Shown here one piece after another: positions 2,941-53,966 of a stretch of DNA of 64,000 bases (positions within the stretch are counted from its first letter, which is position 1; the number at the start of each line of letters is the position of its first letter). Made by a program: the position numbers and the translations under genes. The stretch lies in the IMG/VR virus record IMGVR_UViG_3300029305_006219; one strand, 5' to 3'. Below the pieces are notes generated by a model. The model saw nothing but the letters and a program-made list of their open reading frames with translations, did no database searches and was not told the DNA's origin. This stretch comes from a virus.

Positions 2941-2975
2941 AAAAAACAGAGCGGCGCGAATGCGTCGCTCTGAGA
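2941..2975 (-). terminator. intrinsic terminator for the leftward transcript
   Basis: Hairpin cagagcg..cgctctg followed on the minus strand by TTTTTT. Confidence 0.55.
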
Positions 2976-3010
2976 GGCGTAAAGTGATTATTCGGCGCCG
3001 TCATAAACTG

Positions 3011-3229
3011 TTATCGTTGGTTTATCTTTTTCGATACCTGTTGAATAATATATTCCTGTTCTGATTCAAATCCATCATCGAGCAATCCATACTGCTTCAT
3101 AACCTCGTCAAAAATTTTTTTATCTGCAATATCGACATCATCGTAATATAAATCTACAAGATAATTAATTGCTTTTTCAACATTTTCATAATGCTGAGCT
3201 ATTGCTATATTTAAAGGATTAAAGTTCAT
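3011..3229 (-). CDS. hypothetical small acidic protein (72 aa)
   Basis: ORF from the track. It overlaps the start/stop of 3219..3506, consistent with an operon. Confidence 0.45.
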   Translation of the reverse strand: MNFNPLNIAIAQHYENVEKAINYLVDLYYDDVDIADKKIFDEVMKQYGLLDDGFESEQEYIIQQVSKKINQR

Positions 3230-4974: not shown

Positions 4975-5162
4975 AGAAAGAGTGATTTACACTCGAAAAA
5001 TGGCGTACGAATTACGCAAGTTGGGTTTTAAGATTATTAGAGTGATACCTGATGAGAAGAAACCTTATTTTGATAATTATGTATTTGAAGATAGTCTTGA
5101 GTTACAAGAGGCTATGCGCAAATTATCTTAGGTTTAAAATAAGGAATCGGAGGTATCGGATA

Positions 5163-5846
5163 ATGATTAAAGAATTTAAGAATAATCCTGTAAGAGATTT
5201 TGGTAACGTATATCAGACTATGTTGTCACAGATAAAAAAGAGATATGAGAAAGATCCTGTACAAGCTGGAGAATTAGCTATTAGTTTTATTGAATATGTA
5301 TTAACAGGTGATATTAGTAGTGACGATGATATTATTGAAGGCTTTGTTGAAGGATATAAGGTTACGACTAAAAAGAATCAAGATAAATATGATGCTAAGG
5401 TCGCTGCAACAAGAGACGCGCTAAAGCCAATTGCAGATATGTATAATAGGGGTATGACACAGGCGGCGATTGCGCGTGAGCTAGGTGTTCAGCCGCCCGC
5501 TATTTCAAAGAAAATGTCTACCATTCGTACACAGTTTCCAGAGTTGTTAGATAATGAAGGAAAATTAAAGAAAGTTTCCGAAAATTCTGGAAATAATGGA
5601 AAGTTTCCAAAAAATGAGGAAAGTATAGAAAAAGTTTCTGAAAATTCTGGAAATATTAAGAAAGAAGAAGAAAGTTTAGAAACGTTTCCAAGTTTCCAAA
5701 GTTTCCACAATAATAATAACTATAATAACAATAATAACTAGAATAATAATAATGAAGTTTCCATTTCGCCTCGCGGCGAGTCAGGGCTTCGCCCCGACAC
5801 CCCTGCGGCTTCGCCGATAAAGAAGATTGGAGGGTTTGAGTTTTGA
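5163..5846 (+). CDS. HTH DNA-binding protein (sigma-70 region-4 / ArpU-RinA-like helix-turn-helix), with a possible C-terminal extension past the TAG at 5739
   Basis: RBS ggaggt plus ATG at 5163. HTH motif GMTQAAIARELGVQPPAISKKMSTIR. The track ORF stops at the TAG at 5739-5741, and the frame then stays open to the TGA at 5844-5846. The 3' end is built from repeated KVSENSGN / GTTTCCA units. Confidence 0.5.
5571..5770. repeat. iteron-like direct repeats (A)AAGTTTCC(A/G)AAA, at least 7 copies including three tandem copies, followed by an AT-rich (AAT)n tract and a GC-rich segment
   Basis: aaagtttccgaaaa, aaagtttccaaaaa, aaagtttctgaaaa, cgtttccaa-gtttccaaa-gtttccacaa and agtttccattt, all inside the 3' end of the HTH gene. 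Confidence 0.5.
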
Positions 5847-7777: not shown

Positions 7778-8374
7778 CCGTGTATTTATTTTTACTATGC
7801 ATTTCTAGCAAAAGTACTACACGTAGTAAAATCAATACACGATGAATGTGGTAATTTGCTAAGTTTTTTAATCATACTCAGCCTATACTTCGCTTGATAA
7901 TAAATAATATTAGGTACATTTGCAACCTTTCTGCGTTACCCTTTTTTAAGGCAACGGCAACTATAAGTAAGGAGTATGAGAAGTTGTTGCCTTGTTTTAA
8001 GGTAACAGAAGCGCCTTTCCATTTTATTACATTTTTACCAAATTTTGGTAATACGCATCTATACTACCCTCAAGTCACGGCCTCCCCTTAACTCATTAAC
8101 CAATAGTAGCTCCTTTCTTCTTTACTATTGTCATCTTTTATTCTTTTCACTATAATTATACCATAATTTTCACTAAAATTCAACTTTTTCTCTTGGATCT
8201 AGGCGGCAATCATCATATTTTTCATTTCTGCGACCAAATTTTAGCATTATTGAAAGAACAAAAACAAGGAAAATACATTAGAAATATGAGTTTTTGATAA
8301 AATATTCATATATTATGCGAAAAAATTGATAAAAATGCTAATTATAGGAAAAAATAATGAAAATGAAACAACCA

Positions 8375-8600
8375 AAAATCGCGGGCGTTATAGTGGAAAG
8401 CACTGGACTAGAGCGATGACGGCTCTTTGCGATTGTCCGCGGCCCGAGCATATGCGCGTGCGCGCTATAGAGGTAGAATTAAGGGAAAACAGTGACTGCG
8501 CCAAACAACTATTTTTCGGTCGGTATAATATGGAAGAGATGGTAGATTCTGGAAACGGGGCTAGCCGGTGGCTAGCGACCCGCGCAATTATGAACAAAGT
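8375..8600. other. GC-rich structured island (candidate ncRNA or DNA recognition element)
   Basis: A sharp local rise in GC content. A CGCGGG...CCCGCG helix closes the element. Inside it are the hairpin AGAGCG..GCTCT, the palindrome GCGCGtgCGCGC and a tandem palindromic GGCTAGCC-ggt-GGCTAGC. Track ORF 8326..8604 is unconvincing as protein. Confidence 0.35.
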
Positions 8601-8618
8601 GTGAACAAGGGCGCAGAT

Positions 8619-8655
8619 AAAAAAAACAGAAGGCTTTACCCTCTGTTTTCTTTTA
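8619..8655. terminator. bidirectional intrinsic terminator (ends the leftward early operon)
   Basis: An A8 run, then hairpin acagaagg..cctctgt, then a T-rich run. Confidence 0.6.
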
Positions 8656-10335: not shown

Positions 10336-10429
10336 GGGGTTTTTGAAAAGTTTTTCAAAAATTTTTTATTTTTTTCAGTGGTTGCAACTACGGGACGATG
10401 CCTCGCAAGGTCGTTCTATCCGTCACCGC

Positions 10430-10476
10430 CCCTTGACTACGATAATATTATATCATAAAAAGATAAATTTGTCAAT
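10430..10476 (-). promoter_or_regulatory. early leftward promoter (class B, with upstream TGCACAA operators)
   Basis: The minus strand reads TTGACAaatttatctttttatgaTATAAT. It lies about 80 nt upstream of the class-A promoter, a tandem arrangement. Confidence 0.45.
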
Positions 10477-10491
10477 AGAAAATGGGAAAAT

Positions 10492-10545
10492 AATTTGCAC
10501 AAATTTGAGAGGAATTTTGGTGAGAAAATTGTGCAACTTGCACAA
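10492..10545. promoter_or_regulatory. operator-like palindromes AATTTGCACAAATT and TTGTGCAAcTTGCACAA
   Basis: A perfect 8-1-8 inverted repeat at 10529-10545. The same 17-mer recurs at 12857-12873 and 16958-16974, and related half-sites occur upstream of other class-B promoters. Confidence 0.5.
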
Positions 10546-10557
10546 AAACGCACAAAT

Positions 10558-10625
10558 CGGCCCAGCGGCGGCCGCCGTTGGGCCGGTCAAAAAAAGACCT
10601 CTGCCGTCGCAGAGGTCTATCCTCG
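10558..10625 (-). terminator. tandem terminator: a GC-rich palindrome plus a hairpin with T7
   Basis: ggcccagcggcggccgccgttgggcc, then hairpin agacctctg..cagaggtct followed on the minus strand by T7. Confidence 0.5.
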
Positions 10626-10798
10626 AGGTTGACCATTCTCGCTTTCTCGCCACTCCTTGCGCATAGGGGACTTTGGTTTTAATGGTCTGCAAAGGCGTGT
10701 GATTTGAACACACATCTGTTGGAAACGAAACCAACTGTTCTTCCATTAAACTACCCTTTGTTATGTATGAGGGGCGCATTTGCGCCCCTGTGCCTCAC

Positions 10799-11203
10799 TC
10801 ACGCAAGGCGAAAGTAAGTGACCTTTTTGTCAATGGTCTTGACTACATCACCGCAGTCAACGAGCTTTTTAAGCATAGAGGAAACTCGCTGTGAAGATGT
10901 TTCCTTACCATCTGCCCACTCAAACTCTGCGATACGAGAATCCTTTGCTATCGCACCGCACTGCATACCCTTTACATCGGTTGCTTCTGCGAGAACATCA
11001 TGAATGAGGTCAAGGAAAGTATCAACTTCCTCTGCGCGCTTTGCGCTGACCTTACCACTCTTGCTTTCAAGCTGACCGAGCTTCTTTTCGGCAAACTCGA
11101 TTACTTTATCCATAGGGATTGTGGTCGGCTCTCCGCTTGCCATCTTGATGATTTCCTCATACATCTGCTTCTGTGTGTACTTGATTTCCTTGATTTCTGC
11201 CAT
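10799..11203 (-). CDS. small protein, paralog family member 3 (134 aa)
   Basis: Third member of the family, e.g. ...SSQRVSSMLKKLVDCGDVVKTIDKKVTYFRLA. TGA stop. Confidence 0.55.
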   Translation of the reverse strand: MAEIKEIKYTQKQMYEEIIKMASGEPTTIPMDKVIEFAEKKLGQLESKSGKVSAKRAEEVDTFLDLIHDVLAEATDVKGMQCGAIAKDSRIAEFEWADGKETSSQRVSSMLKKLVDCGDVVKTIDKKVTYFRLA

Positions 11204-11354
11204 AATTTTTTTCCTCTCTTGCTATTAGGTTGCAACCCTTTAATTTTATTTATCAGAGGTATTCCCTCTTGATTACATATATATTATACCATACTTTTTG
11301 GTATTTGTCAATAGGTTTTTGAAAAATTTTTTATTTTTTTTCTTGGGTAGAGGG

Positions 11355-12074
11355 TTATTCACCCTCTACCTCTTTGCGCTTATGAAAGGGATATACCCAT
11401 TCACCCTCTGGAGTTAAGCAACCGAGTTTCGTGCGCTCTTGGAAGATATTACAACCTCTTTTTCCAAGTTCACAAAGAATACGGAGTTCCCATTGAACAT
11501 CGGAAAGTGCGGTATGTTCCTCAACAAAATCTTTATCTTGGTTAAGAAATGCGGTTACACCCTCAACAGAGGTCGGTATATATTTACCACTTGGAGTGCG
11601 GAGTTCGTGTTCGTTGCAAAATGCGATATAATCTGCGGTAGAGCATATGTCGTATTGTGCATTACACCATATATCTATAACCTCGATTTTGTCAAGTGGA
11701 TTCAAAATACCGAGCGCAGTTGCGGTTCTGCGGAATTTGTCCTCGTCAAACTCGGAGTTATAGGCAAAGCCATACTGTATGCCATATCGGTCAATATCTC
11801 TTGCTATTTGCTCAAATATCTGTTTTTCGGTACGGAGTATTGCCGTTCCGTTCTCAACATTCAAGTCAAACTTTGCGAGTTTTTCTGCTTTGACGAACAT
11901 ATCATTCAAGAGCCAAATGCGGTTGTGATAATGTTTGCCTACAAGATAGTCTTTGCCTTTGAGTATCTTATACTTAAAGGTTGTTAAGTCAACATCTGCT
12001 ATACAATAGCCTATGTTAAGTAGTGTTTGGGTACAACACCCTGCGGTTTCGGTATCAAATACCATAATGTTCAT
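11355..12074 (-). CDS. DEDDh-family 3'-5' exonuclease (DnaQ / RNase T-like), 239 aa
   Basis: Exo I motif MVFDTETAG, a later FDxxF block and the Exo III motif H-TALSDVQWE. Intact ORF with a TAA stop. Confidence 0.7.
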   Translation of the reverse strand: MNIMVFDTETAGCCTQTLLNIGYCIADVDLTTFKYKILKGKDYLVGKHYHNRIWLLNDMFVKAEKLAKFDLNVENGTAILRTEKQIFEQIARDIDRYGIQYGFAYNSEFDEDKFRRTATALGILNPLDKIEVIDIWCNAQYDICSTADYIAFCNEHELRTPSGKYIPTSVEGVTAFLNQDKDFVEEHTALSDVQWELRILCELGKRGCNIFQERTKLGCLTPEGEWVYPFHKRKEVEGE

Positions 12075-12159
12075 TTTTTCTTTTCCTCTCTTTCTGTCAT
12101 AGGGAGTAGCCCTCGCTCTCCACTCGACATATATATTATATCACATCTTGACGAATTTG

Positions 12160-12606
12160 TCAAGAGGTTTTACAAAATTTTTTCAAAATTTCAAAAATTT
12201 TTTCGGGCGGAAATGCGTCACCCTTAGTCCACTCAAGGCGGTTGCGCTCTTCATCGTCAAACAGTATGCCCTCACTCTTGGCTACGGACGATTTGGGTGT
12301 GCCATATGGAACGATATGCAATTCATCAAAAATAACGGACTTCAAGTGCTTTTTGAGCCATTTGCGCTTGGCTTTAGTGACCGCCTTGTTATAGTCCTCA
12401 GTTGCGGCTTTAGACAGCCACGATATAACACCTATATGAACGCCATTGCGCTGAGCCTTATTCAATGCTCTTGCAAGTGCAGACATATTGTGCATAGGTC
12501 TTGCTTCTTCATATGGGCGCGTTCGCTTGGCTTCAAGGTCATCGAGCCAGCCTTCGACCGCATAAAGGTCAGCAACGGTGCCGTCAAGGTCTAAATAAAT
12601 TGTCAT
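12160..12606 (-). CDS. HAD-superfamily 5'(3')-deoxyribonucleotidase-like phosphatase (NT5C-like), 148 aa
   Basis: HAD motif I LDLDGTVADL at the N-terminus. Size and layout are typical of phage NT5C-like enzymes. Confidence 0.6.
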   Translation of the reverse strand: MTIYLDLDGTVADLYAVEGWLDDLEAKRTRPYEEARPMHNMSALARALNKAQRNGVHIGVISWLSKAATEDYNKAVTKAKRKWLKKHLKSVIFDELHIVPYGTPKSSVAKSEGILFDDEERNRLEWTKGDAFPPEKIFEILKKFCKTS

Positions 12607-12640
12607 TTGGTTTAGTTCCTTTCTTCCTTACTGCTCTTAT

Positions 12641-12669
12641 ATTATACCATACTTTGAGCGATTTGTCAA
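12641..12669 (-). promoter_or_regulatory. early leftward promoter (class A)
   Basis: Plus-strand attatacc...ttgtcaagggg with a 17-nt spacer. A second, class-B promoter lies at about 12745-12795. Confidence 0.5.
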
Positions 12670-12856
12670 GGGGTTTTTGAAAAATTTTTTCAAAAATTTT
12701 TGAGTGTCCACTGATTAGCAAGTCCATTTCACTGCTTTTGTTTCTCACCCCTTGACTACGATAATATTATACCACAAAGGGCGCAAAAAGTCAAGCGGTT
12801 TTGGGAATTTTCTTTTCGTCAATTTGCACAAACTTTTGGCGAAAAAATGCGTGGAA

Positions 12857-12935
12857 TTGTGCAATTTGCACAAAAACGGCGCCACACCGATCGGTGGCGC
12901 GCCGACCAAAAAGAGGGAGATTAATCTCCCTCTAT
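12857..12935 (-). promoter_or_regulatory. regulatory/insulator cassette: TTGTGCAAtTTGCACAA, then the GC palindrome ggcgccaCACCGATCGGTGgcgcgcc, then a terminator hairpin
   Basis: Same element order as at 10492-10625. The terminator hairpin agagggagattaatctccctct overlaps the TAA stop of gene 12921..13130. Confidence 0.5.
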
Positions 12936-13130
12936 TATGATTTTATTGATAACTTTTGCATAGTCTTCTTGCGCTCTTCGGAATGCTTGTGCCGCAGTAT
13001 GCAAAGGGCATTCTTCGCAATCAATTTCGCCGCACTGTATATGAATGCAGGGGTCAATCATTATAGCTTCAAGAGTGTCGTGCTGTTCTGTTGCGGTTAT
13101 TGTGACTATGATTTTCATATTTACCTCCAA
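12921..13130 (-). CDS. small Cys-containing protein (69 aa)
   Basis: ORF from the track with a TAA stop. Confidence 0.45.
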   Translation of the reverse strand: MEVNMKIIVTITATEQHDTLEAIMIDPCIHIQCGEIDCEECPLHTAAQAFRRAQEDYAKVINKIIIEGD

Positions 13131-13381
13131 ATTAAATTGATAAGATAATAAGTATTCATCGCAAATAATGCGACATTAAGTATTACAAGATTTATGCGCC
13201 TTGCGCTAAAGCAAAATGCGGTTGCGATTGCCGAGCCGATGAAGAATAATACTGTCATATCGGCGCCACACATAACACCTATTGCGCAAGCGGTATAGAT
13301 TAGTGCGGTGATATCGGTGATATCAAATTCATAGGGGCGGTCAAGGCTGAAATAGGTTTTTAGTTTACCAATCAAAGTCAT
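13121..13381 (-). CDS. small membrane protein (86 aa)
   Basis: Two hydrophobic segments. TAA stop. Confidence 0.5.
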   Translation of the reverse strand: MTLIGKLKTYFSLDRPYEFDITDITALIYTACAIGVMCGADMTVLFFIGSAIATAFCFSARRINLVILNVALFAMNTYYLINLIWR

Positions 13382-13553
13382 CTACCTCTTCTTCCTCATA
13401 ATCATTAGTATAATAATATTGCGTGGTTTTGAACTCTTTACCACAACCGCATTTATATTTGCGACTTGCGACAATTTGCTCTCCGTCCTCTTCATATTTT
13501 GCCGATAAATATTTAACTTGGGCGGTGCTACCGCAATTTGGACATTTAATCAT
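13365..13553 (-). CDS. small zinc-ribbon protein (62 aa)
   Basis: CPNCG...CGCGKEF motifs. Confidence 0.5.
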   Translation of the reverse strand: MIKCPNCGSTAQVKYLSAKYEEDGEQIVASRKYKCGCGKEFKTTQYYYTNDYEEEEVDDFDW

Positions 13554-13753
13554 TTTAATTTAAGCTCCTTTCTAATATTGATAATTCCACGAAATTCTGC
13601 GGTATAGATTGCTTCACAGTGAGGGCAACAAACTTTAGCCTCAAAATCTGCTTCATACCCGTCAAAATTCCATATCTTTGCATCCACATCTCCACAGAAC
13701 AAGTCATCTCTGGTTATAAGTTTATCGCAATTTGGGCATTTAATCATTTTCAA
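13550..13753 (-). CDS. small zinc-ribbon protein (67 aa)
   Basis: CPNC...CCPHC motifs. Confidence 0.5.
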   Translation of the reverse strand: MKMIKCPNCDKLITRDDLFCGDVDAKIWNFDGYEADFEAKVCCPHCEAIYTAEFRGIINIRKELKLK

Positions 13754-13945
13754 ATTCTCCTTGATATTCTCTTATTGTGCAATATCCACTCCAACGCCAT
13801 TCAAGGCATTGTTGATTGATATATTCTTGTGCCTGTTCTTGACTATCAAAGATAGGCGGTTTATTATCTCCTATGAATCCTTTATGCAAGAAGCCGTTTG
13901 GACAAGAGCGAGTATGAATATAAATTACATATTGCATAAGTATTA
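13740..13945 (-). CDS. small protein (about 68 aa); the longer track ORF 13740..14273 is rejected because it runs through the tRNA
   Basis: An internal ATG with RBS aagaggtaatacttATG lies just downstream of the tRNA. Upstream of it, the ORF translates tRNA and promoter DNA (..GSIPIRF.. matches the T-arm). Confidence 0.35.
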
Positions 13946-13957
13946 CCTCTCTTTTTT

Positions 13958-14032
13958 TGGTGAAGCGAATGGGAATTGAACCCACAACGCAGTTGAATAG
14001 TGTCAACCTCATTACCTTTGTGATACCGCTTC
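13958..14032 (-). tRNA. tRNA with CTA in the anticodon loop: candidate amber (UAG) suppressor tRNA
   Basis: Minus-strand sequence GAAGCGGTATCACAAAGGTAATGAGGTTGACACTATTCAACTGCGTTGTGGGTTCAATTCCCATTCGCTTCACCA. The 7-bp acceptor stem has one G.U pair. U8, A14 and GG are in the D-loop. The T-arm is GTGGG/CCCAT with loop TTCAATT. CCA is encoded. The anticodon stem GTTGA/TCAAC is perfect but the loop CACTAT has 6 nt, which is atypical, so the fold needs software confirmation. Confidence 0.6.
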
Positions 14033-14045
14033 TTATTACATTTAT

Positions 14046-14074
14046 ATTATACCATATAATCTTGCTTTTGTCAA
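14046..14074 (-). promoter_or_regulatory. consensus promoter driving the tRNA (TTGACA-N17-TGgTATAAT)
   Basis: The reverse complement reads cTTGACAaaagcaagattatatggTATAAT. The predicted transcription start is about 7 nt before the tRNA 5' end. Confidence 0.55.
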
Positions 14075-14217
14075 GAGGTTTTCGAAAAATATTTGCAACT
14101 ATTTTTCTTATCTCCGATACTTTCCTACTCAAAGCTTTCGTGTCCGTTCTCTTGTTGTACACCAAGTTTCTGATTTCCATTCCTTGCAAGTTAATTTCTC
14201 CGCACGAGGTTCCCCCT

Positions 14218-14258
14218 CTTGACATTATTATTATATCATACAATCGGGAAAATGTCAA
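14218..14258 (-). promoter_or_regulatory. second (class-B) promoter upstream of the tRNA
   Basis: The reverse complement reads cTTGACAttttcccgattgtatgaTATAAT. TGCACAA-type sites lie at 14275-14319, a GC palindrome at 14321-14347 and a terminator at about 14350-14385 further upstream. Confidence 0.5.
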
Positions 14259-14461
14259 GTGGTAATGTTGCACAAAGTTTCAACAAAAAAATGGCGGGAA
14301 GTGTACAAAATGCACAAAACGGAACGCGCCGGCCGGGCTCGTTCCGCTCGGATTTCAGGCAAAAAAGAAAAAACCCAGAACTCATGAAAAGCTCTGGAAA
14401 TTTGTTGAGAGGTCTACTTCGTGGAAATTCGGACTTGGCGCGACCGCCTTCGTCCGTCAGC

Positions 14462-14764
14462 TTAATGGCTGAAGTGTTTCAACACGTCTTGTACATTGTA
14501 CTCATTTTCATCATCACTCATAATTATAATTTTATTTTCCCATTCAGCAGGAATGCTTAAAATTTTAAATGTTTCCTTTAAGAATGAAATCATATTCGTA
14601 CAATCATTTTTTTGATTGTCAGAATGAAAGAGAAGGGCGCCCAACTCTTCACAATAAAGTGCATGAAGTGGATAGTCTTGCGCCGAGAGGGTTTCCCAAT
14701 CAAGGGGAGTAAGTGATGATTCAAAAGAAGTGATGACAAGAGCGTGGATGAAGTGATACTTCAT
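14462..14764 (-). CDS. hypothetical protein (100 aa)
   Basis: ORF from the track with a TAA stop. Confidence 0.5.
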   Translation of the reverse strand: MKYHFIHALVITSFESSLTPLDWETLSAQDYPLHALYCEELGALLFHSDNQKNDCTNMISFLKETFKILSIPAEWENKIIIMSDDENEYNVQDVLKHFSH

Positions 14765-14846
14765 ACCGCGTGACCTCCTTGTATCTCTTATTTCTTTTTA
14801 CATTTATATTATAATATAAAATTTTATAAAAATCAATGGGTGTGGA

Positions 14847-15055
14847 TTATTCCACACCCAAGAGTTCCTTTATTTTATTGACTACTTGCTCTTGTGCTTG
14901 TTTCAGAATGTAATAATCACAATTATCAAGTGTTGCAATATAATCATCTACCGCTATGCGGATTTCAATTTCATTACTATTATGATTAAGATCATACTCC
15001 TTAATGATTTCTTTTTCATTGATTTCTACGCCCGTAGTAATCTCTATATACATAT
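14847..15055 (-). CDS. small protein (about 68 aa, starting MYIEITTGVEINEKE)
   Basis: A strong RBS aaaaggagaaaacaatATG lies inside track ORF 14847..15173. A class-A promoter at 15386-15414 serves the operon. Confidence 0.45.
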
Positions 15056-15096
15056 TGTTTTCTCCTTTTGCGAATTTCCAAATTTTTCCAATGCGC

Positions 15097-15354
15097 CTAC
15101 CAAGCGACTCGGATATGATATCTACCTTCAAAAAGGTTTTTTTCAATCTCAGCCTTGTAGCCAAATTTTTCAAGATTCGCTCTTATGAGTTCGACCTCAT
15201 CTTTGGAAACCTCTTTTACTCCACTGAAATAACCTTGTGAAGCCCTTTTTTTGATGAAGCGCAACATCTCTTTCATTGCCCACGAATGCATGAATTGGTT
15301 TTGATTATTTTCTGCCATCTCTCTTGCTTCCTTTGCGGTCATAGGGTTTTTCAT
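15097..15354 (-). CDS. hypothetical protein (85 aa); the only early gene found that ends on TAG
   Basis: The stop codon is cta on the plus strand at 15097-15099, which is TAG on the minus strand. The frame stays open for about 22 more codons. Confidence 0.5.
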   Translation of the reverse strand: MKNPMTAKEAREMAENNQNQFMHSWAMKEMLRFIKKRASQGYFSGVKEVSKDEVELIRANLEKFGYKAEIEKNLFEGRYHIRVAW

Positions 15355-15428
15355 AAGTATTTCCTCTCTTTCTTTTAGTATATATATTATACCATACTTT
15401 TATATATTTGTCAAGTAGTTTTTGAAAA

Positions 15429-15653
15429 TTATTTGAAAAAAATTTCAAGCACAATTACATCGTCGCAACAACCCTCAATAGTTATTTCCATACTATCTAT
15501 CTTGCGGTTAGCATACTCTTTAATATGCTCACATTCTTTAACATACCAATCGATTGATTGAGCACCAAGCCATTGTTCTGCTTTGAGTAAGAAGTTGTCA
15601 TAAATGCGGATTTTATCTATGTTGTAGATAAGCGGAAGTTGTGCAAGTGTCAT
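15429..15653 (-). CDS. hypothetical protein (74 aa)
   Basis: RBS AGAGAGG. A class-B promoter lies at 15686-15714. Confidence 0.5.
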   Translation of the reverse strand: MTLAQLPLIYNIDKIRIYDNFLLKAEQWLGAQSIDWYVKECEHIKEYANRKIDSMEITIEGCCDDVIVLEIFFK

Positions 15654-15832
15654 AAGTCATTTTCCTCTCTTTCTTTTACACTTATATTATACCACAAATA
15701 TCGGGAATTGTCAATAGGTAATAATCAACAAAGTTTTGCGCCGATTTTTGTGCAAAATGCCAGCCCACAGATAAAACGGCTCGGCGCGCCCGATGCCGAG
15801 CCGCCAAAAAACAAAAGAGGGCAATCGCCCTC

Positions 15833-16213
15833 TTAGGTTTGATATTTAGTTATCTCTGTGGAAGAGCTTTGCGCCACCATTAGCGAAATACACCTTTGCA
15901 TTGTATCGAGTTCAACCACTCTGATGACTTTGCCTTTAGCATACGCATATCCGCACTCCCAAGCTGATCCAAGGTCACCATTGGCGCCTTCGCAAAAATA
16001 GAGAATTTCATCACATTCATCTATTGCTTGAACGTCGTGTTGGAATACCTTGCGCGCCCATTCGGAGTTAGGTAAAGCTTTAGCATTAGGTATCTCTAAT
16101 TCGTGGGGAACGTAAACTTTATATCCTAACTGTCGTAAGAGTTTTGCGTGCTTGTTTATTCTGTCCTTTTGGCTTTCGGTAAACATAGCACTTGCTATAT
16201 AAAACTTTTTCAT
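15833..16213 (-). CDS. nucleoside 2-deoxyribosyltransferase-like protein (NDT / Rcl-DNPH1 fold), 126 aa
   Basis: N-terminal FYIASAMFTE and catalytic-region DLGSAWECGYAYAKGKVI match the NDT family pattern (YxAGxxF ... D.G...E.GyA.a.gK). Confidence 0.55.
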   Translation of the reverse strand: MKKFYIASAMFTESQKDRINKHAKLLRQLGYKVYVPHELEIPNAKALPNSEWARKVFQHDVQAIDECDEILYFCEGANGDLGSAWECGYAYAKGKVIRVVELDTMQRCISLMVAQSSSTEITKYQT

Positions 16214-16238
16214 ATCTCACCTCTTGATAGTGGATAGA

Positions 16239-16457
16239 TTATTCATCTATCCACTCTTTTACTTTATAGGCTGTAACCTCGACAATATCAGCGGTGAATT
16301 TTATCTCTCCCGTAAAGTTATAGATTACGTAAGTATTACCTCTGTTATTTGTCGTAAACTCTCTTGCAAACTGAATTGCCATACTAAGATCGTCAAAATC
16401 AGCAATATGTTTGCCGTCCGCATAGACGCCATAGTCAAGAATGTCAAATTTTACCAT
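16239..16457 (-). CDS. hypothetical protein (72 aa)
   Basis: RBS AAGGAAGG. A class-B promoter lies at about 16486-16522, directly preceded by ATTTTGCACAAAATT. Confidence 0.5.
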   Translation of the reverse strand: MVKFDILDYGVYADGKHIADFDDLSMAIQFAREFTTNNRGNTYVIYNFTGEIKFTADIVEVTAYKVKEWIDE

Positions 16458-16555
16458 AATATTAATACCTTCCTTCCTTTACTGTGCCTATATTATATCA
16501 TATTACTTGCCTCTTGTCAATAGGCATTTTGCACAAAATTTTGCGGCGGGTCTTG

Positions 16556-16864
16556 TTAACAATATACAAGACCCATATCACGCCAACGGAGAATAGAAAT
16601 TTGAGAGCAGGCGCGCCCGACCTCAAGCGCTTTTTTCAAGGTACTTTCGCGATGGCTCTTGTCTATGTAATAAACTCCAGAACTATACCATATACCACAG
16701 TTGCCTTCGTATGCCTTAACGGCGTTGATTGCTTCGCGCGGGTCACGGGTTTCGATACCTTCGGTGGCTACTTGGTAGCCTGTTTTGAACGTGACGCGCT
16801 GACCCTTTTTGAGAGTTAAGCCGTCATTATCTTTAAGTTTGAGAATCGAGCGAATGTTAATCAT
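16556..16864 (-). CDS. hypothetical protein (102 aa)
   Basis: A class-B promoter at about 16895-16925, with TTGTGCAAcTTGCACAA at 16958-16974 upstream of it. Confidence 0.5.
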   Translation of the reverse strand: MINIRSILKLKDNDGLTLKKGQRVTFKTGYQVATEGIETRDPREAINAVKAYEGNCGIWYSSGVYYIDKSHRESTLKKALEVGRACSQISILRWRDMGLVYC

Positions 16865-17041
16865 AGGTGTTTCCCCTTCCTTTATCTTACGTACTTATTA
16901 TACCATAAAAGCGGGAATTTGTCAATAGGCAAAAGTAACAAAGTTTTGATAGTAAATTTGTGCAACTTGCACAACTATGCGTAAAGCGTCACGCCGCGGC
17001 CCTTGGCGTGACGGCGAAAAAAAAAGAGGGCGCAAGCGCCC

Positions 17042-17242
17042 TCATATGAAGTCGGCAAATTGGTCTTCCACCCAAGCCATTATAAGAGGATTAAAGGTTT
17101 GTATCTCAACCTCTACGCATGAGGGATGGACTTGGAGAAGAATTGCCTCTCCTGCGTTATTAGCGGCGAGGAATGAGCAGACTTTTTGCACCGCCATACC
17201 GCTTTCAAAAGTTTTATTAAGCATAAAATTCTTATACTGCAT
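17042..17242 (-). CDS. small protein (about 66 aa)
   Basis: RBS ataagaaaggagatatatATG. It is the C-terminal part of track ORF 17042..17443, whose 5' part overlaps gene 17271..17558 out of frame. Confidence 0.4.
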   Translation of the reverse strand: MQYKNFMLNKTFESGMAVQKVCSFLAANNAGEAILLQVHPSCVEVEIQTFNPLIMAWVEDQFADFI

Positions 17243-17270
17243 ATATATCTCCTTTCTTATGGGGATTGCC

Positions 17271-17558
17271 TTAGCAATCCCCCGTATAGCAACCCATATA
17301 GGGGTCAAAGCCGTTTTCATCAGGCTCTTCTTCCTCATAGTCATACCAGTCGTCATTATAATAGAGGGTCTCAGAGCCGTGATGGTAAATGATGCGCGCC
17401 ATATCTGTCGCCTCTGCTTCAGTAAGATAGCCATTAGCAACAAGCTCTATAAGTCTGCCTATTGCAAGAGAATGAGTATCTTCAAGTCCAAATTCCGTAC
17501 AAGCAAGATTGAAGCAAGTCTGCAAGTCGAGTTTTGTGTAATCCATAATGCACCTCAT
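17271..17558 (-). CDS. hypothetical acidic protein (95 aa)
   Basis: ORF from the track. A class-B promoter lies at about 17596-17632. Confidence 0.5.
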   Translation of the reverse strand: MRCIMDYTKLDLQTCFNLACTEFGLEDTHSLAIGRLIELVANGYLTEAEATDMARIIYHHGSETLYYNDDWYDYEEEEPDENGFDPYMGCYTGDC

Positions 17559-17832
17559 AGTATTTATTTGAGAGTCTATTCCCTCTCTTCTTGCCTATAT
17601 TATATCATATATTCTTGCATTTGTCAATGAATAAAATGTAAACAATATATGAATTATGGGACGGGATCCAATCATAGTTTATTCAATCAATTGAAATAAA
17701 AAATTTACAAATTGTTCACAAATTGCTTTAACGGTGCGCGCCGACCGTGCCCGCACCGAGCGATATAAAAAGGCGCGCCAAAGGTCACCCTAAGGCGCGT
17801 TATAGTGTTGATATGAGATGCTAAGGGCGCGC

Positions 17833-18126
17833 TCAGGCGCCCTCATCATCAAGCTGACTCTCTATAAATGGTATGATGATATTGAATATTTCAACTTCTT
17901 TATTGGTTAAGCCTATAATATCGCAATATGCTATTGGCTCTGCTATATCTTTATATACCGTGCGTACTGAGGGGCTTAAATGGTATGGGTCAATATAAGG
18001 GTCGCTATCACTATCACCCCACATTCTGTCACCTTTGACATCGTATATTGCCAATACATCGCCGAAGTAGCGGGCAAGATATTCTGCCCATTGTGTAAAC
18101 TCATTTTGTATGCTTATTCTTTTCAT
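17833..18126 (-). CDS. hypothetical protein (97 aa)
   Basis: ORF from the track. Confidence 0.45.
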   Translation of the reverse strand: MKRISIQNEFTQWAEYLARYFGDVLAIYDVKGDRMWGDSDSDPYIDPYHLSPSVRTVYKDIAEPIAYCDIIGLTNKEVEIFNIIIPFIESQLDDEGA

Positions 18127-20226: not shown

Positions 20227-21399
20227 ATGGATACATTACAAACTTTAGACGACCTTTTGTCTGATGAGGATTTAGATATTGAAGACTCTTCTGAACAAGA
20301 GGAAGAAAATATAGAAGAGAAAATTATCACTGAAGATATTGCGCAAACTATAAAATTAGATTATAAGTTAGCTACCTGCGAAGAGCGCTCGGCGTTGGTT
20401 AATAAGATTATAGCCCAAACCCCTGCCGCCTCTTTAACAAATCGTTATTTAGAAATTTTAGGCGATTATATTATGGGAGGTATCACAAAAGAAGAACGTA
20501 AATCGCACCTATACCTTACTGACAATAGAATGATTACTGTTGCAAGGCGCGAAACGTCTTTTGAAGGTTTGGCAGAAAAATTTGAAAATGGAGAAGATGG
20601 TATTTATAATTTAATGACAAATGATAAAAATATTATCTTTGCACCAAAAAATACAATCACTGAAGAAGATATAGAAAATGTTCCTGGTCTTAAGCAATTG
20701 CGCGAGGCTATTATTCAAATTGAAGAGGAGGGGAAACGTGCTATAGGAAAGCGCAAATACCTTCTCAAAAAGCAACTCATAGAAATGCGTAAAGACCAAT
20801 ATATCTTAAAGAATTCATATTAGGCCCCCATGGTTTGCACTCCTTGTGCAAAAGGAGCAAATAAAATTGATTTAAGTGAAAAAAAATATGTAGATGAAAA
20901 TGGAGATCCACAAAGCACAGGTTTAATTTCTTTTTTTAAACCAGAGCATATTCAAGCAATTTTAAATAATTATAATGCTTTAAAAATAGAGACTAAAGGT
21001 AAATATTCTAGTGACTTTTTTTATTTGATGGAAGATTTTGATAAATTATTACATAAGGCATTAGATAATTATCCTATGTATTTTGATATTGTAAAAATGA
21101 AAGTAAATGGAAAAACAAATATTGAAATTCAAAAAATGTTAAAAGAAAAACATAATACAAGTTTTACTGTGTAGTACATTTCCAGTCTATGGTGTAAAAA
21201 AATTCCTAAAATTATAGCTGAGAAAGAACAGCATGACTTCTTAATCTGGTATTATCGTAATGAACAAAAAGGCCCATGGAAGCGTTGCTCTTGTTGTAAA
21301 GAATTTAAACCAGCTAATTCGCGCTTTTTCTCTAAGAATCGCACAAGTAAAGATGGATTTTATAGCATTTGCAAAATGTGCCGCAATAAGAAAAAATAA
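20227..21399 (+). CDS. hypothetical protein (about 390 aa, 2 in-frame TAG) with an acidic N-terminus and a C-terminal CxxC..CxxC motif
   Basis: Track ORFs 20227..20823 and 20830..21174 plus a further segment share frame 1. They are separated only by TAG codons and end on TAA at 21397-21399. Confidence 0.5.
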
Positions 21400-36733: not shown

Positions 36734-36828
36734 GGTCAAAATAAGATAAATTTAATACCCTAACTATTATATATTAGTAGTATAGGGTATTTTATTTTAC
36801 CTAAAACGAGAAACAAGGAGGATATATA

Positions 36829-39800
36829 ATGGCTAATTAGGAAAGAATTAATTTCTAGGTTGGTTTTAATGTAGATTAGTCTGGTTTAAATTAGTTAAAA
36901 ACAAGTTTATCTAATTTATAGAATATGAAACCAGCGGACTTAACTAATATTAAAAATTTGGCTGAGGCTAAAAAAGAATTATCTATTATTCAACAAGAGG
37001 CTAAGAAAGTATAGAATGCACTTGAAGCTAGTTTTAATCCTACGTTAGGCACGCATAACATTGATATTTTTAAACAAAAATTAATAGAAAATGGTGCTTC
37101 TATTTAGGATATAAAAAATAAATTTGCATCTGCGGGTGCCGAAGGTACAACTGCATTTAGAAATTTAGCAACAGCAATTTCATCAACTAAATTACCGCTT
37201 CAAGAGACACATAATTTATTGCGCTCTATGGGCACTACATTGATGAATACTATTAAATGGTCTATTGCATCTTCAGCTTTATAGACGATCACTTCTTCTG
37301 TTCAATAGGCATGGAATTATACTAAATAGCTAGATAAATCATTAAACAATATTATGCTTGTTACTGATAAAAGCGCAGAGTCAATGGAGAAATTTGCGCG
37401 TCAAGCAAATAAAGCGGCTAGGGAATTAGGTAAAAGTACTAAAGATTATGCCAATGCTGCTTTAATATATTACCAACAAGGTTTATCTGAAGAAGAGGTA
37501 AGAGCTAGAACAGAAACAACGCTGAAAGTTGCAAATGTTACGAAACAAAGCACAGAAATGGTTTCTGAACAATTAACCGCGGTTTGGAATGGTTATAAGG
37601 TATAGGCGCAAGAAGCTGAAGCTTATATCGATAAAATTGCAGTTGTAGCAGCAACAACCGCAGCCGACTTAGAAGAGCTCTCTACTGGTATGTCTAAAGT
37701 TGCTTCTGCGGCTAGCAATATGGGAGTTAATATTGATTAGTTAAATGCAATGTTAGCAACTGTTATTTCCGTTACGCGCCAGGCGCCTGAGTCTGTTGGT
37801 ACAGCATTTAAAACCATTTTTGCTCGTATTAGTGATATTGAAGCGGGCTTAGATGCAGAAGCTACTCTTGGAGAATACACAAAACAAATGTCGCAATTGG
37901 GCTTTGATGTTTTAGATGCGAATAATAAACTACGCGATATGGGTAGCGTTGTTGAGGAAATTGGTAGTAAATGGAATACATTGTCGCGTGAACAATAGAT
38001 TTCATTGGCATAGACAATGGCTGGTACTCGTCAGTATAATAATCTTTTAGCGTTATTTGAAAACTGGAGTATGTATGAGAAGTCTGTACGAGATTCTGCT
38101 ACTGCAACCGGATTTTTACAAGAACAACAAGAAAAATATTTAGATTCTGTTGAAGCTCATTTAGAACAATTAAGCGCGGCAGGTGAGCGTGTATATGATG
38201 CTTTGTTTGATTCAAAAAGTACTAATAATCTTATTGATATTTTAACTGATTTTGTTACATTTTTTGGTAATGCTATTGAATCAATAGGGGGCGGCGGTAC
38301 TTTATTAATGGCTATTTTACCAGTAATGACTAAATTATTTTCTGGTAGTTTAGCATCTGGCATGGCTACATTTGTTACTAACATTCAAAATGCATAGCAG
38401 TCTGCTCAATCGCTGCGTGGATTATTAGAGAATATTAAAGAAATTCGTTTAAATGGGGATACTTTGACTTCTGATTATGATGAAAAAATTAGCGCTTTAA
38501 GAGAAAATTTAGTATTATTAAAGCAATAGGGTATTATTACAAATGAAACTTTTAATAATTTAACAGATACTATTAATGCTTTTGCAAATGCAGCTAATGA
38601 ATACGAGAAATCTATAGAAGCTTATGATCCTACTACAATAGGAGATTAGTATACAAAAATTTTATAGCGTGGCTTTAATATGCCTCCTGCTGGAAGTAAA
38701 TCCTCTGTCACAGAAGAGTCTGCATAGCTTTATATAAATCGTTTATCTGAATATGCTCGTGAAAATCCATTTTCAAATGAAGATTTTATAAGAATGGAAA
38801 ATTCAAGTGTTGAATATATGGATGCTTCTGCTGAAAATTCTTATAAGAGATTATATTTTGAGTTAGAGAATGTTTAGGCTGCATATAACGAAACTATAAA
38901 ACGTGCATAGAATTTAACAAAAATTATTAACAATACATCATGGGATAAATTTAAGCAAGAAGGAAGCCCTGCGGTTAAAAAGTTTAATGACGAACTTCAG
39001 CATACGTTAAATGATGTTAATAAAATTTCATAGTCTGGATTACTTTCTGGATAGGACTTAACTCATTTTAATAAATATGCGTCAGTATTAAAAGGATTTA
39101 ATAAAGATACAAAAATTACTCAAGAATAGTTTGATCAAATATAGACAGCCGTGTCTGAAATTGAGCGTTTAACTAAACGCGCAATGGGCAAGGGCAATAC
39201 AGAAGCTAAAAAGATGTAGCAATCTTTACGTGAGCTTGGCGCAGCGGGGGTTGAGGCAAAATCTACTATGGATTAGTTTGGTGTGGCTGCTGAAATGGCA
39301 TTGCGTAAAGCTAACCTTGAAAAGCAAATTAATTCATTTATTCAATTAACATCTAATATTAGTATGGCAATTTCTGCGTTGACAATATTGTCTAATTTAG
39401 GTTCTATTTGGAAAAATGAAGATTTAACTGTTGGAGAAAAACTGTTATAGACATTATAGAATACTGTTACTACAATATCATTATTAAGTCCATTGATTAC
39501 AGGTCTAATTAAATTATATAGTACCCATAATGCTAAACTTGCAGAAAAAAATATTTAGACTGCTCAAGAAATTGCTTTAACACAAATTTTAACAACATTA
39601 AAAGATAAAGAAGCTAATGCAGAAACTAAACTGTGGGCAGCCAAATGTTTAGTAGATTTAGCCGGGGATGAAATAAATGATGAACTACGCGAAGAAATTA
39701 ATAATCATATTTTAAACGGTGAAGCATTAGATAATGAAACTATAGCAATTTTAAAAAATGCTGCTGCTAAAAAAATTGCTAATAATACTGATAATCCTTC

Positions 39801-45800: not shown

Positions 45801-46257
45801 CATAACGCAAAACCAAAACTCAAATGATAGAAGTGGAGTATATTTAGATAATGCTGAAGAGGTTCTCAATTTTACAGAACTTTATAATAATTATAGACGA
45901 TTATCTAAGTTTGATACTGGTGGTTACACAGGAGACTGGGGCGCCGAGGGCCGACTTGCGATGCTTCATGAGAAAGAAATAGTTCTCAATAAACAAGACT
46001 CTTCGAATTTCCTTGATGCACTTGATATTCTCCGCACTTTAAATCTTTCGATGGTTGATTAGATGGCGAATTACAATTTTGGTTTTACGCATTCTCAAGC
46101 GGCATGGGAAGCGCTTAATAGTTCGACTATTGAATAGATTGTTAATATTAATGCGGAGTTCCCGAATGCTACTGACAAGGACGAAATTAAAGAAGCTTTT
46201 GAAGACTTGGTTAATTTAGCATTGTAGTATACAGGTAAGAATTCTCGAGTTAAATAA
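36829..46257 (+). CDS. tail tape measure protein (about 3142 aa, many tens of in-frame TAG codons)
   Basis: Track ORFs 37354, 37750, 38017, 40423, 41170, 43078 and 45739 are all in frame 1. Hand translation of the intervening stretches meets only TAG, never TAA or TGA, until the TAA at 46255-46257. Gly/Ala-rich glycine-zipper TM-like segments (GWKAGGAGAKAGAAKGGAAGIGQAIGA..) are present. The TP901-type region EELSTGMSKVASAASNMGVNID and the C-terminal FDTGGYTGDWG block are recognisable. A hairpin terminator follows at 46261-46295. Confidence 0.6.
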
Positions 46258-46363
46258 AATAAGGCGGCTAAGGGCAACTTTAGCCGCCTTTGGGCATTTC
46301 TATTTAATTTATTTATTATAATTTTTATATTTTTAGAAGAGAAAAAAGGAGGTATAATAATTT

Positions 46364-53872: not shown

Positions 53873-53966
53873 TTATAAGCCACTTAATATATAAAATATA
53901 AGACGCCTTAGGGTGACCTTTGGCGCCGATTAAATAAATTCATAATTTAAAGGAGATTTTAAAATT

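What the first reader, a model, noticed from the sequence alone, without database searches (positions are those of the whole stretch)
10558..17850. Each early unit is insulated by a tandem terminator (AT hairpin plus T-run, then a GC-rich palindrome), and one GC-hairpin loop is copied in the late region
Order is conserved but sequence is variable: gene stop, hairpin plus T5-9, GC-rich stem-loop, TGCACAA sites, then the class-B promoter. The GC-rich stem-loops are ggcccagcggcggccgccgttgggcc, ggcgccaCACCGATCGGTGgcgcgcc, cggaacg..cgttccg, ggctcggc..gccgagcc, cgtcacgcc..ggcgtgacg, ggtgcg..cgcacc and gggtcttgt..acaagaccc. The arrangement occurs at 10558-10625, 12881-12935, 14321-14385, 15771-15830, 16545-16575, 16990-17045 and 17745-17850. 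In one case the first hairpin overlaps the upstream stop codon (12921). The 23-mer GCGCCAAAGGTCACCCTAAGGCG at 17775-17797 reappears as its reverse complement at 53903-53925, downstream of the 288-aa fibre gene. Loop included, this argues for a sequence-specific recognition element rather than a generic stem.
Basis: seen in the sequence. Interest (0 to 1): 0.5.

Follow-up and report, generated by a model that had tools for sequence, protein, structure and literature searches.

The report
Terminator plus GC-palindrome promoter cassettes
In the early region of an uncultured gut phage, six gene units end in an ordinary terminator followed by a very GC-rich hairpin that belongs to the next regulated promoter; this looks like a double stop signal inside reusable regulatory cassettes, and the hairpin copied in the late region is a one-off duplicate rather than a conserved signal.

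Summary
The described anatomy is real at six of the seven listed sites. On the transcribed (minus) strand the order is: stop codon, mixed-GC hairpin plus T-run (T1), a 27-28-nt palindrome of 78-89% GC (T2), TTGTGCA boxes, then a consensus promoter.

Corrections:
- T1 is not an AT hairpin.
- Site 16545-16575 is a single hairpin of 41% GC with no T-run.
- The tandem occurs only upstream of box-bearing promoters (6 of 7, against 0 of 8 box-less promoters), not at every early unit.
- The 23-mer is T1 of site 7, not a second-position GC hairpin. Its late copy lies at 53904-53926.

T2 sits at fixed distances from the -35 (61-62, 82 or 104 nt). It recurs in relatives with different sequence but preserved pairing (93% against 51% when arms are swapped). 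Three or four of six have a good T-tract. T2 shows no strand bias.

Differences between relatives start and end at the cassettes. This resembles the PeSL promoter/stem-loop cassettes of T4-type phages.

The 23-mer pair is exact and appears in independent assemblies. It is absent from three public collections. At both sites, relatives carry unrelated hairpins or none.

Verdict: a double hairpin stop in front of regulated promoters is plausible. A sequence-specific 23-mer element is not supported.

The parts
10595..10618 (-). S1 T1: hairpin AGACCTCTGCGACGGCAGAGGTCT followed by T7; canonical terminator after the tRNA and its trailer
   Evidence: identical in L001 and L002
10558..10585 (-). S1 T2: 28-nt palindrome, 89% GC, -21.6 kcal/mol, tail ATTTGTGC
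12912..12933 (-). S2 T1: AGAGGGAGATTAATCTCCCTCT followed by T4; stop codon of ORF 12921-13130 lies in the loop
12877..12904 (-). S2 T2: 28-nt GC palindrome, tail TTTTTGTG running into the box palindrome
14375..14397 (-). S3 T1: CCAGAGC...GTTCTGG followed by T6CT6
14320..14346 (-). S3 T2: 27-nt GC palindrome, tail TTTTGTGC
15815..15834 (-). S4 T1: AAGAGGGCGATTGCCCTCTT followed by TTGTTTTTT
15777..15803 (-). S4 T2: 27-nt GC hairpin, tail TTTTATCT
16549..16575 (-). S5: single hairpin GGGTCTTGT...ACAAGACCC, 41% GC, no T-run, overlaps the end of ORF 16556-16864; not a tandem site
17026..17043 (-). S6 T1: GAGGGCGCTTGCGCCCTC followed by T9
16987..17013 (-). S6 T2: 27-nt GC hairpin, weak tail CTTTACGC
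17822..17850 (-). S7 extra hairpin GAGGGCGCCTGAGCGCGCCCT holding the stop codon of ORF 17833-18126; no T-run; conserved in L002
17774..17799 (-). S7 T1: hairpin CGCGCC-UU-AGG-GUGA-CCU-UU-GGCGCG followed by CCTTTTT; contains the 23-mer (17775-17797)
17732..17758 (-). S7 T2: 27-nt GC hairpin, no T-tract (TTAAAGCA)
53904..53926 (+). Late copy of the 23-mer, same polarity relative to local transcription, between the 288-aa and 504-aa genes; weaker hairpin (-12.2 kcal/mol) and no T-tract (tail score 1.84, below background)
10447..10545 (-). S1 box-bearing promoter cassette: TTGTGCA boxes, palindrome TTGTGCAAGTTGCACAA (10529-10545), promoter 10475-10447
12766..12873 (-). S2 cassette: box palindrome 12857-12873, box 12825-12831, promoter 12794-12766
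14230..14317 (-). S3 cassette: boxes 14311-14317 and 14269-14275, promoter 14258-14230
15686..15754 (-). S4 cassette: box 15748-15754, promoter 15714-15686
16897..16974 (-). S6 cassette: box palindrome 16958-16974, promoter 16925-16897; hybrid of two cassettes that are separate in L001 and L002
17599..17731 (-). S7 cassette: variant boxes TTGTGAACAATTTGTAAA, promoter 17627-17599
8555..8650 (-).

Best explanation
The early region is built from composite regulatory cassettes.

Shown:
- At six junctions the upstream unit ends in a conventional intrinsic terminator, T1 (hairpin plus T-run).
- Seven to 28 nt further on lies T2, a 27-28-nt, 78-89% GC near-palindrome. It sits at a fixed distance (61-62, 82 or 104 nt) upstream of the -35 of a consensus promoter that carries TTGTGCA-type boxes.
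- T2 is kept in relatives as a structure, not as a sequence.

Inferred:
- T2 is a compact second hairpin stop. It catches polymerases that read through T1, so the very strong upstream promoters do not drive the regulated unit downstream.
- T2 belongs to the promoter cassette rather than to the upstream gene.
- Because the cassettes are similar to each other, they also act as crossover points that add, delete and swap small early gene units between related phages.
- The 23-mer is simply the T1 hairpin of site 7. It is specific to this lineage and shares a recent intragenomic copy with a late intergenic hairpin. Nothing indicates a dedicated recognition factor.
For: Anatomy and excess over chance.

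T1 looks like a sense-strand RNA hairpin. Tail scores are 4.2-6.1 at five of six sites against a background 99th percentile of 4.31; the 23-mer hairpin at S7 scores 2.74, its T5 run starting two bases after the stem. G-U pairs number 13 on the sense strand against 4 on the antisense strand.

T2:
- Tails at S2, S3 and S4 score 4.55-4.85; all antisense tails score 1.5-2.1.
- Pairing is preserved in 23 hairpins from four phages: 93% of the outer eight pairs, against 51% when arms are swapped between hairpins (maximum 66% in 1000 shuffles), with several pair types per position.
- Both hairpins are less conserved than the protein-binding parts. Identity to the window is 0.58 for T1 and 0.61 for T2, against 0.75 for the box region and 0.80 for the promoter.
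- T2 is tied to box-bearing promoters: 6 of 7 against 0 of 8 in the window, and 25 of 31 against 3 of 41 across four phages (Fisher p = 1e-10; the loci are related, so this p is inflated).
- Distances from T2 to the -35 are fixed.
- In L003 one T2 with a T5 tail stands alone with no T1.

Cassette-bounded mosaicism:
- At S1, L002 differs from T2 onward while T1 is identical.
- S6 of the window joins the upstream half of one cassette of L001/L002 to the downstream half of another. It lacks the gene units that lie between them in those phages.

23-mer.
Against: - There are no transcript data, so termination is not shown for any hairpin.
- T2 at S6 and S7 lacks a usable T-tract (scores 2.75 and 2.97), and S1 is borderline at 3.05.
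- T2 shows no sense-strand signature. G-U pairs are 15 against 15, and summed energy is -581 kcal/mol sense against -591 antisense.
- T2 loops are as GC-rich as the stems, and several T2 are palindromic through the centre. A plain RNA terminator does not need this.
- All late-region terminators of the same phage are of T1 type, so it is unclear why a back-up terminator should look so different.
- In distant relatives the GC hairpin sits directly after a -10 element or between convergent promoters. A simple back-up role does not predict this.
Confidence: 0.55

Rival explanations
1. T2 acts in the DNA rather than in RNA. It would be a GC-rich inverted repeat set in AT-rich flanks that forms a cruciform or is bound by a structure-specific protein. 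It could serve as a supercoil or promoter-domain boundary, or as a recombination point, next to the box region.
For: - No strand bias in G-U pairs or in energy, unlike T1.
- Palindromy often runs through the centre (S1, S2).
- The loops are GC-rich.
- The spacing to the -35 is fixed.
- Two of six lack a T-tract.
- In relatives the hairpin is used in either orientation relative to promoters, including between convergent promoters.
Against: - The sequence is not conserved, so any binding would have to be purely structural.
- A T-tract directly after the stem is kept on the sense side only at most sites and in most orthologues.
- GC-rich centres disfavour cruciform extrusion (my own knowledge, not tested).
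- Crossover points seen here do not fall specifically in T2.
Confidence: 0.2
2. One reading: the 23-mer hairpin (GNRA-type GUGA loop, UU/UU internal loop) is a sequence-specific RNA element. A phage or host factor would read it and link one early unit with the tail-fibre region.
For: - Exact 23-nt identity including the loop and internal loop, against 0.00 expected.
- Both copies have the same polarity relative to transcription.
- Both are unchanged in independent assemblies from several samples.
- It is the only hairpin shared between non-orthologous sites among 20 tested.
Against: - Only two copies were found in the 76 kb read.
- It is absent from three collections.
- Relatives hold unrelated hairpins or none at both positions.
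- One copy has a T-run and the other does not.
- There is no Rfam match.
- Flank similarity is 10 of 17 in AT-rich sequence, which I judge no better than chance; this was not formally tested.
Confidence: 0.1
3. T2 has no function of its own. It would be a by-product of a process that creates and perfects palindromes (template switching in quasi-palindromes), carried along with the promoter cassette.
For: - Near-perfect palindromy.
- Fast sequence turnover with pairing kept.
- No strand bias.
Against: - Length is constant at 27-28 nt.
- Extreme GC content in intergenic DNA, inside a window whose 2-kb stretches average 28-42% GC.
- Position is fixed.
- It persists across phages that share only 34% identity in a neighbouring protein, and in more distant relatives.
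All of these point to selection.
Confidence: 0.08
4. The two 23-bp copies are inverted repeats for a site-specific DNA inversion of the 36-kb segment between them, as in tail-fibre switching systems.
For: - They are inverted in the DNA, and one lies beside tail-fibre-like genes.
- Two short contigs end in or next to the late-site copy of the repeat.
Against: - All 13 independent contigs show the same junctions as the window.
- No recombinase gene was seen near either copy.
- An inversion would turn the whole structural module against its promoters.
- The repeat coincides with a hairpin, and hairpins alone explain contig breaks.
Confidence: 0.02

Closest known systems
PeSL cassettes (promoter-early stem-loops) of T4-type phages (Arbiol et al. 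2010, PMC2839356; Comeau et al. 2014, PMC4122927)
   Same: - Small repeated intergenic cassettes that join a consensus sigma-70-type promoter with a stem-loop proposed to stop upstream transcription.
- Concentrated among small genes of unknown function in a variable early region.
- Stem sequences vary.
- Insertions, deletions and replacements between related phages are bounded by the cassettes.
- In distant relatives the position of the hairpin relative to the promoter varies, as in the PeSL subclasses.
   Different: - A different phage group: a roughly 135-kb TAG-recoded gut phage with relatives among Firmicute phages.
- Two hairpins of different kinds instead of one.
- The second hairpin is a 27-28-nt, roughly 85% GC palindrome at a fixed distance upstream of the promoter.
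- The cassette also carries TTGTGCA palindromic boxes.
- Often a second promoter lies behind an ORF-less leader.
- No mini-circles have been shown.
Tandem intrinsic (Rho-independent) terminators, for example rrnB T1-T2 (my own knowledge)
   Same: - Two hairpins in series downstream of a unit.
- The first has a long T-run.
- The second has a T-tract directly after the stem at S2, S3 and S4.
   Different: - The second hairpin has a weak or missing T-tract at S1, S6 and S7.
- It has no sense-strand bias.
- It is tied in position to the next promoter rather than to the preceding gene.
SPO1 host-takeover module (my own knowledge; the term appears in PMC6873191)
   Same: An array of very short early genes, each behind a very strong host-type promoter and separated by terminators.
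   Different: Nothing I know of in that module matches the GC palindrome or the box-bearing cassette. I did not compare sequences.
Structure-conserved, sequence-variable palindromes such as integron attC sites and REP elements (my own knowledge)
   Same: Intergenic imperfect palindromes that keep pairing while the sequence varies, placed between small gene units.
   Different: - No conserved core motif at the ends of T2.
- T2 is much shorter than attC.
- No integrase or REP-type transposase was seen.
- Crossovers are not centred on T2.

Membership tests
Intrinsic (Rho-independent) terminator: T1 hairpins | Stable stem-loop directly followed by a T-rich tract on the transcribed strand, downstream of a gene | tested here: met
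   Five of six were flagged by the terminator scan. The sixth (S7) has CCTTTTT. Tail scores are 4.2-6.1 at five sites and 2.74 at S7. dG is -11.6 to -18.4 kcal/mol.
Intrinsic (Rho-independent) terminator: T1 hairpins | Selection acts on the sense RNA (G-U pairs tolerated on the sense strand only) | tested here: met
   G-U pairs 13 sense against 4 antisense; summed dG -356 against -331 kcal/mol over 29 tandems. The sample is small.
Intrinsic (Rho-independent) terminator: T2 palindromes | Stable GC-rich stem-loop | tested here: met
   dG -15.5 to -21.6 kcal/mol; z-scores.
Intrinsic (Rho-independent) terminator: T2 palindromes | T-rich tract directly after the stem | tested here: inconclusive
   S2, S3 and S4 score 4.55-4.85, above the 99th percentile of background. 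S1 scores 3.05, S6 2.75 and S7 2.97. The tail score is my own implementation of a published formula, written from memory.
Intrinsic (Rho-independent) terminator: T2 palindromes | Sense-strand signature | tested here: not met
   G-U pairs 15 against 15; antisense folds are slightly more stable.
Intrinsic (Rho-independent) terminator: T1 and T2 | RNA 3' ends at the T-tract in vivo or in vitro | not testable with these tools
   No transcript data are available.
PeSL-type composite regulatory cassette | Repeated intergenic unit that joins a consensus sigma-70-type promoter with a stem-loop | tested here: met
   (repeat families D1-D3, D12).
PeSL-type composite regulatory cassette | Sits upstream of small genes of unknown function in a variable region | tested here: met
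   Nine of ten early proteins have no Pfam match. Gene content differs between the window, L001 and L002.
PeSL-type composite regulatory cassette | Insertions, deletions and replacements between relatives are bounded by cassettes | tested here: met
   S6 is a hybrid cassette with loss of the intervening units. At S1, L002 is replaced from T2 onward.
PeSL-type composite regulatory cassette | Found in T4-type myoviruses; stem-loop within or at the promoter | tested here: not met
   The phage is unrelated to that group. The hairpins lie 61-104 nt upstream of the -35. The cassette works like a PeSL but is not a member by descent.
PeSL-type composite regulatory cassette | Mini-circles formed by recombination between cassettes | not testable with these tools
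   This needs read-level or PCR data.
Sequence-specific RNA element (the 23-mer) | Sequence conserved at the same positions in related genomes | tested here: not met
   At the early site L001 has a different hairpin and L002 none. At the late site L143 and L144 have different hairpins.
Sequence-specific RNA element (the 23-mer) | Recurs beyond one pair, in the genome or elsewhere | tested here: not met
   Two copies in 76 kb. None in the viral, metagenome or genome collections. About 59 kb of the genome was not readable here.
Sequence-specific RNA element (the 23-mer) | Match to a described RNA family | tested here: not met
   Only chance-level hits below the gathering scores.
REP / integron attC-type palindromes | Conserved core motif at the palindrome ends and an associated recombinase | tested here: not met
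   The outer pairs vary (GC or CG at position 1, several pair types at positions 3-8). No recombinase gene was noticed near the sites; no dedicated search was made.

The most novel reading that the evidence does not exclude
The GC palindromes may be a distinct class of compact element that works in either orientation and acts through structure. TAG-recoded Clostridia-type phages would use it wherever very strong consensus promoters must be stopped or isolated within a few dozen bases: after a terminator in front of a regulated promoter (this window), directly after a promoter, or between two convergent promoters (relatives, including the published phAss-1). The element would act in both directions, or at the DNA level, rather than as an ordinary one-way terminator.
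Probability: 0.2. Interest if true: 0.55.

Novelty: new variant of a known kind. Interest (0 to 1): 0.35.

Why it matters
Phages that recode TAG must keep early and late programmes strictly apart. One of these cassettes sits in front of the unit that starts with a probable amber-suppressor tRNA. Knowing how units are insulated would help explain how the code switch is timed.

The cassettes also give a concrete mechanism for the gain and loss of small early genes in this uncultured group. This parallels PeSLs in an unrelated phage lineage.

The GC palindromes could be useful as very short insulators if they work in both orientations.

None of this overturns current knowledge. The paper that describes phAss-1, a distant relative of this phage, does not mention promoters, terminators or hairpins, so the description itself is new.

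Tried and rejected
- DNA searches of the early region against deposited phages, in near and distant modes: no match.
- 23-mer or its 20-mer core in the viral, metagenome and genome collections: nothing.
- Exact-protein look-ups returned only copies of the same phage identical at both 23-mer sites. They confirm the sequence but give no divergence.
- The nearest homologues of the 288-aa protein are only 47% identical, or 76% over part of the protein, so no intermediate relatives exist for the late site.
- A possible late promoter motif (CTTAATATATAA) upstream of the late hairpin: not enriched (31 matches against 35 expected).
- The extension of the repeat to 40 nt at 85% rests on 10 of 17 matches in AT-rich flank. 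I judged this no better than chance (not formally tested) and did not use it.
- Rfam at relaxed thresholds around both 23-mer copies and around the tRNA trailer: only chance-level hits and no ribozyme family.
- A MAFFT alignment of trimmed T2 arms, made for the count of structure pairs, fell out of register. It was not used, so the pair counts rest on my script.
- Walking to the remaining 59 kb of the genome was not possible, because look-ups accept only proteins encoded in the window.
- The idea that a protein bound to the boxes acts as a roadblock that helps T2 terminate was dropped. A stalled polymerase would sit before the hairpin is complete.
- The idea that T2 mimics CRISPR repeats was dropped because every T2 differs in sequence.

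Full report
**Context**

The window is part of a roughly 135-kb phage genome. It maps to positions 9742-73741 of a 135,189-nt metagenome contig.

Genes at 20-64 kb lie on the plus strand. They give long reading frames only if TAG is read through, including one of 3150 codons.

The region at 8-20 kb holds short genes on the minus strand. Each lies behind a perfect TTGACA-17-TGnTATAAT promoter.

Protein matches place the phage near large phages of Firmicutes, including the published TAG-recoded gut phage phAss-1. Nine of ten early proteins have no Pfam match.

**Check of the observation**

Coordinates are listed under parts.

The structures fold far better than shuffled sequence, with z-scores from -3.3 to -7.6.

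Stretches of at least 18 G/C in 22 nt occur 11 times in the window against 0.5 expected. Only five of them fold strongly, and those are T2 hairpins. T2 of S2 fell just under the threshold.

Corrections:
- T1 is 45-78% GC, not AT-rich.
- The site at 16545-16575 is a single hairpin of 41% GC without a T-run.
- S7 has three hairpins. The outermost holds the upstream stop codon.
- Two ranges are clipped.
- The late 23-mer copy is at 53904-53926.
- The tandem is not a property of 'each early unit'. It precedes six of the seven promoters that carry boxes and none of the eight that do not.

**What T1 and T2 are**

T1 looks like an ordinary intrinsic terminator.
- The simple scan flags five of six.
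- Tail scores are 4.2-6.1 at five sites against a background 99th percentile of 4.31. The 23-mer hairpin at S7 scores 2.74.
- Over 29 tandems from this phage and relatives, G-U pairs favour the sense strand 13 to 4.

T2 differs in five ways.
- With its closing C-G pair it is always 27-28 nt long and 78-89% GC, loops included. Several T2 are palindromic through the centre.
- Its 3' end lies 61-62, 82 or 104 nt from the -35.
- Directly after the stem come TTTTTGTG (S2), TTTTGTGC (S3) and TTTTATCT (S4), which are good T-tracts. ATTTGTGC (S1) is borderline. CTTTACGC (S6) and TTAAAGCA (S7) are poor.
- On the opposite strand no T2 has a T-rich tail.
- T2 shows no strand bias. G-U pairs are 15 against 15, and antisense folds are slightly more stable.

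All intergenic terminators in the late region are of T1 type.

**Relatives**

Two phages share 86-88% amino-acid identity in the neighbouring exonuclease-like protein (L001, L002). A more distant group shares 34% (L003-L005). All keep the same architecture.

Across 23 T2 hairpins from four phages, 93% of the outer eight positions pair. When arms are swapped between hairpins the figure is 51%, with a maximum of 66% in 1000 shuffles. Most positions use three or four pair types.

Identity to the window by segment:

| Segment | Identity |
|---|---|
| T1 | 0.58 |
| T2 | 0.61 |
| Box region | 0.75 |
| Promoter | 0.80 |

Both hairpins therefore evolve under a structural constraint, while the protein-binding parts are constrained in sequence.

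Across the four phages a GC hairpin precedes 25 of 31 box-bearing promoters and 3 of 41 others. Fisher's test gives p = 1e-10, but the loci are related, so this is not an independent sample.

More distant relatives found through the box palindrome also place a T-run terminator before a GC hairpin of the form CGGCCCG...CGGGCCG followed by a short T-tract.

**Cassettes as crossover points**

At S1, T1 is identical in the window, L001 and L002. L002 differs from T2 onward.

At S6, the window's terminators and box palindrome match one cassette of L001/L002, and its promoter half matches another. The gene units that lie between those two cassettes in L001 and L002 are missing from the window. This is the footprint of recombination between two cassettes.

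This mirrors the PeSL cassettes of T4-type phages, which join a consensus promoter with a stem-loop and bound the indels between close relatives.

**The 23-mer**

- It is the T1 hairpin of S7, with the structure CGCGCC-UU-AGG-GUGA-CCU-UU-GGCGCG followed by CCUUUUU.
- The late copy has the same polarity relative to transcription. Its stem is shorter (-12.2 kcal/mol) and it has no T-tract, with a tail score of 1.84, below the background mean.
- Thirteen contigs from independent assemblies carry one or the other copy with both junctions as in the window. One of them ends inside the late copy. The pair is therefore real.
- No further copy exists in the window, in the 9.7 kb to its left or in the 2.4 kb to its right.
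- The 23-mer is absent from the viral collection, and its 20-nt core is absent from the metagenome and genome collections.
- At the early site L001 has an unrelated terminator hairpin and L002 has none.
- At the late site two distant relatives each have a hairpin at the same spot, with unrelated sequence and again no T-run.
- Among 20 hairpins of the window compared with all fetched DNA, this is the only one shared between non-orthologous places.
- There is no Rfam match.

Position and structure are kept, but sequence is not. The simplest reading is a recent copy of one hairpin into the other site in this lineage.

**Mechanism and its limits**

I consider a double hairpin stop in front of regulated promoters the best explanation (confidence 0.55). 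The architecture, the structural conservation, the link to box-bearing promoters and the cassette-bounded mosaicism are shown. Termination itself, and the purpose of shielding a regulated promoter, are inferred.

The main rival is a role for T2 in the DNA, or in both orientations (0.2). It rests on three observations:
- T2 has no strand bias.
- T2 loops are GC-rich.
- In distant relatives, including phAss-1, the same kind of hairpin lies directly after a -10 element or between two convergent consensus promoters.

In those convergent cases the reverse complement of each -10 element supplies a short T-rich tail for the opposing direction. A hairpin stop that works both ways would fit this.

**Novelty**

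The elements are variants of known kinds: intrinsic terminators, and composite terminator-promoter cassettes. The GC palindrome at a fixed position in a box-bearing cassette is, as far as I could find, undescribed. The phAss-1 paper does not mention promoters, terminators or hairpins.

Noticed in passing
window 20200-64000 (+): Late genes give long reading frames only if TAG is read through (3150- and 1655-codon frames at 36805-46257 and 46361-51328). Early genes on the minus strand are intact under the standard code. This is a code-15-type phage.
   Followed up: partly
window about 13963-14037 (-): A tRNA-like gene with anticodon loop CACTATT (CUA, which reads UAG), T-arm GGTTCAATTCC and a CCA end. 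Default ARAGORN and Rfam missed it; relaxed ARAGORN found it. It is probably the amber suppressor, and it is the first element behind promoters 14258 and 14074, downstream of the S3 double stop.
   Followed up: partly
window 10619-10760 (-): The tRNA at 10689-10760 has an 8-nt anticodon loop; ARAGORN reports a four-base anticodon. A 70-nt trailer closed by GACCATT/AATGGTC lies between it and T1, and part of it aligns with L001 and L002. Gut-phage tRNAs are often followed by theta ribozymes (PMC10879173), but no Rfam ribozyme matched.
   Followed up: partly
window 10336-10446, 12670-12765, 14075-14229 (-): Three box-bearing promoters are followed by ORF-less leaders of 100-190 nt that begin GTCAAGGGG or GTCAAGAGG. 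Next come an AT-rich upstream element and a second consensus promoter. The leaders differ in sequence between relatives.
   Followed up: no
window 8190-8650 (-): A looser tandem site (T1 plus T8, TTGTTCA boxes, GC hairpin) is followed by about 350 nt without an ORF. That stretch contains GC-rich segments and a reversed TATAAT.
   Followed up: no
L150 minus-strand positions about 2950-3080 and 5160-5290 (phAss-1 OQ749652, record about 130.7-133.0 kb); L046 1400-1640; L085, L015, L106: In distant relatives a GC-rich hairpin lies directly after a consensus -10 element or between two convergent consensus promoters about 35 nt apart. This would yield very short hairpin RNAs.
   Followed up: partly
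   Followed up: no
L135, L136 (late 23-mer site); L142 (early site): Two short metagenome contigs end inside or a few bases after the late copy of the 23-mer. A third ends at the T2 hairpin about 40 nt past the early copy. This is probably an assembly effect at the repeat or at GC-rich hairpins.
   Followed up: no
window 20227-20820 (+); L145 11400-11609, 19306-20669: A sigma-factor-like gene opens the plus-strand block. Homing-endonuclease-type domains (NUMOD3, PD-(D/E)XK, GIY-YIG) lie in the 9.7 kb to the left of the window.
   Followed up: no
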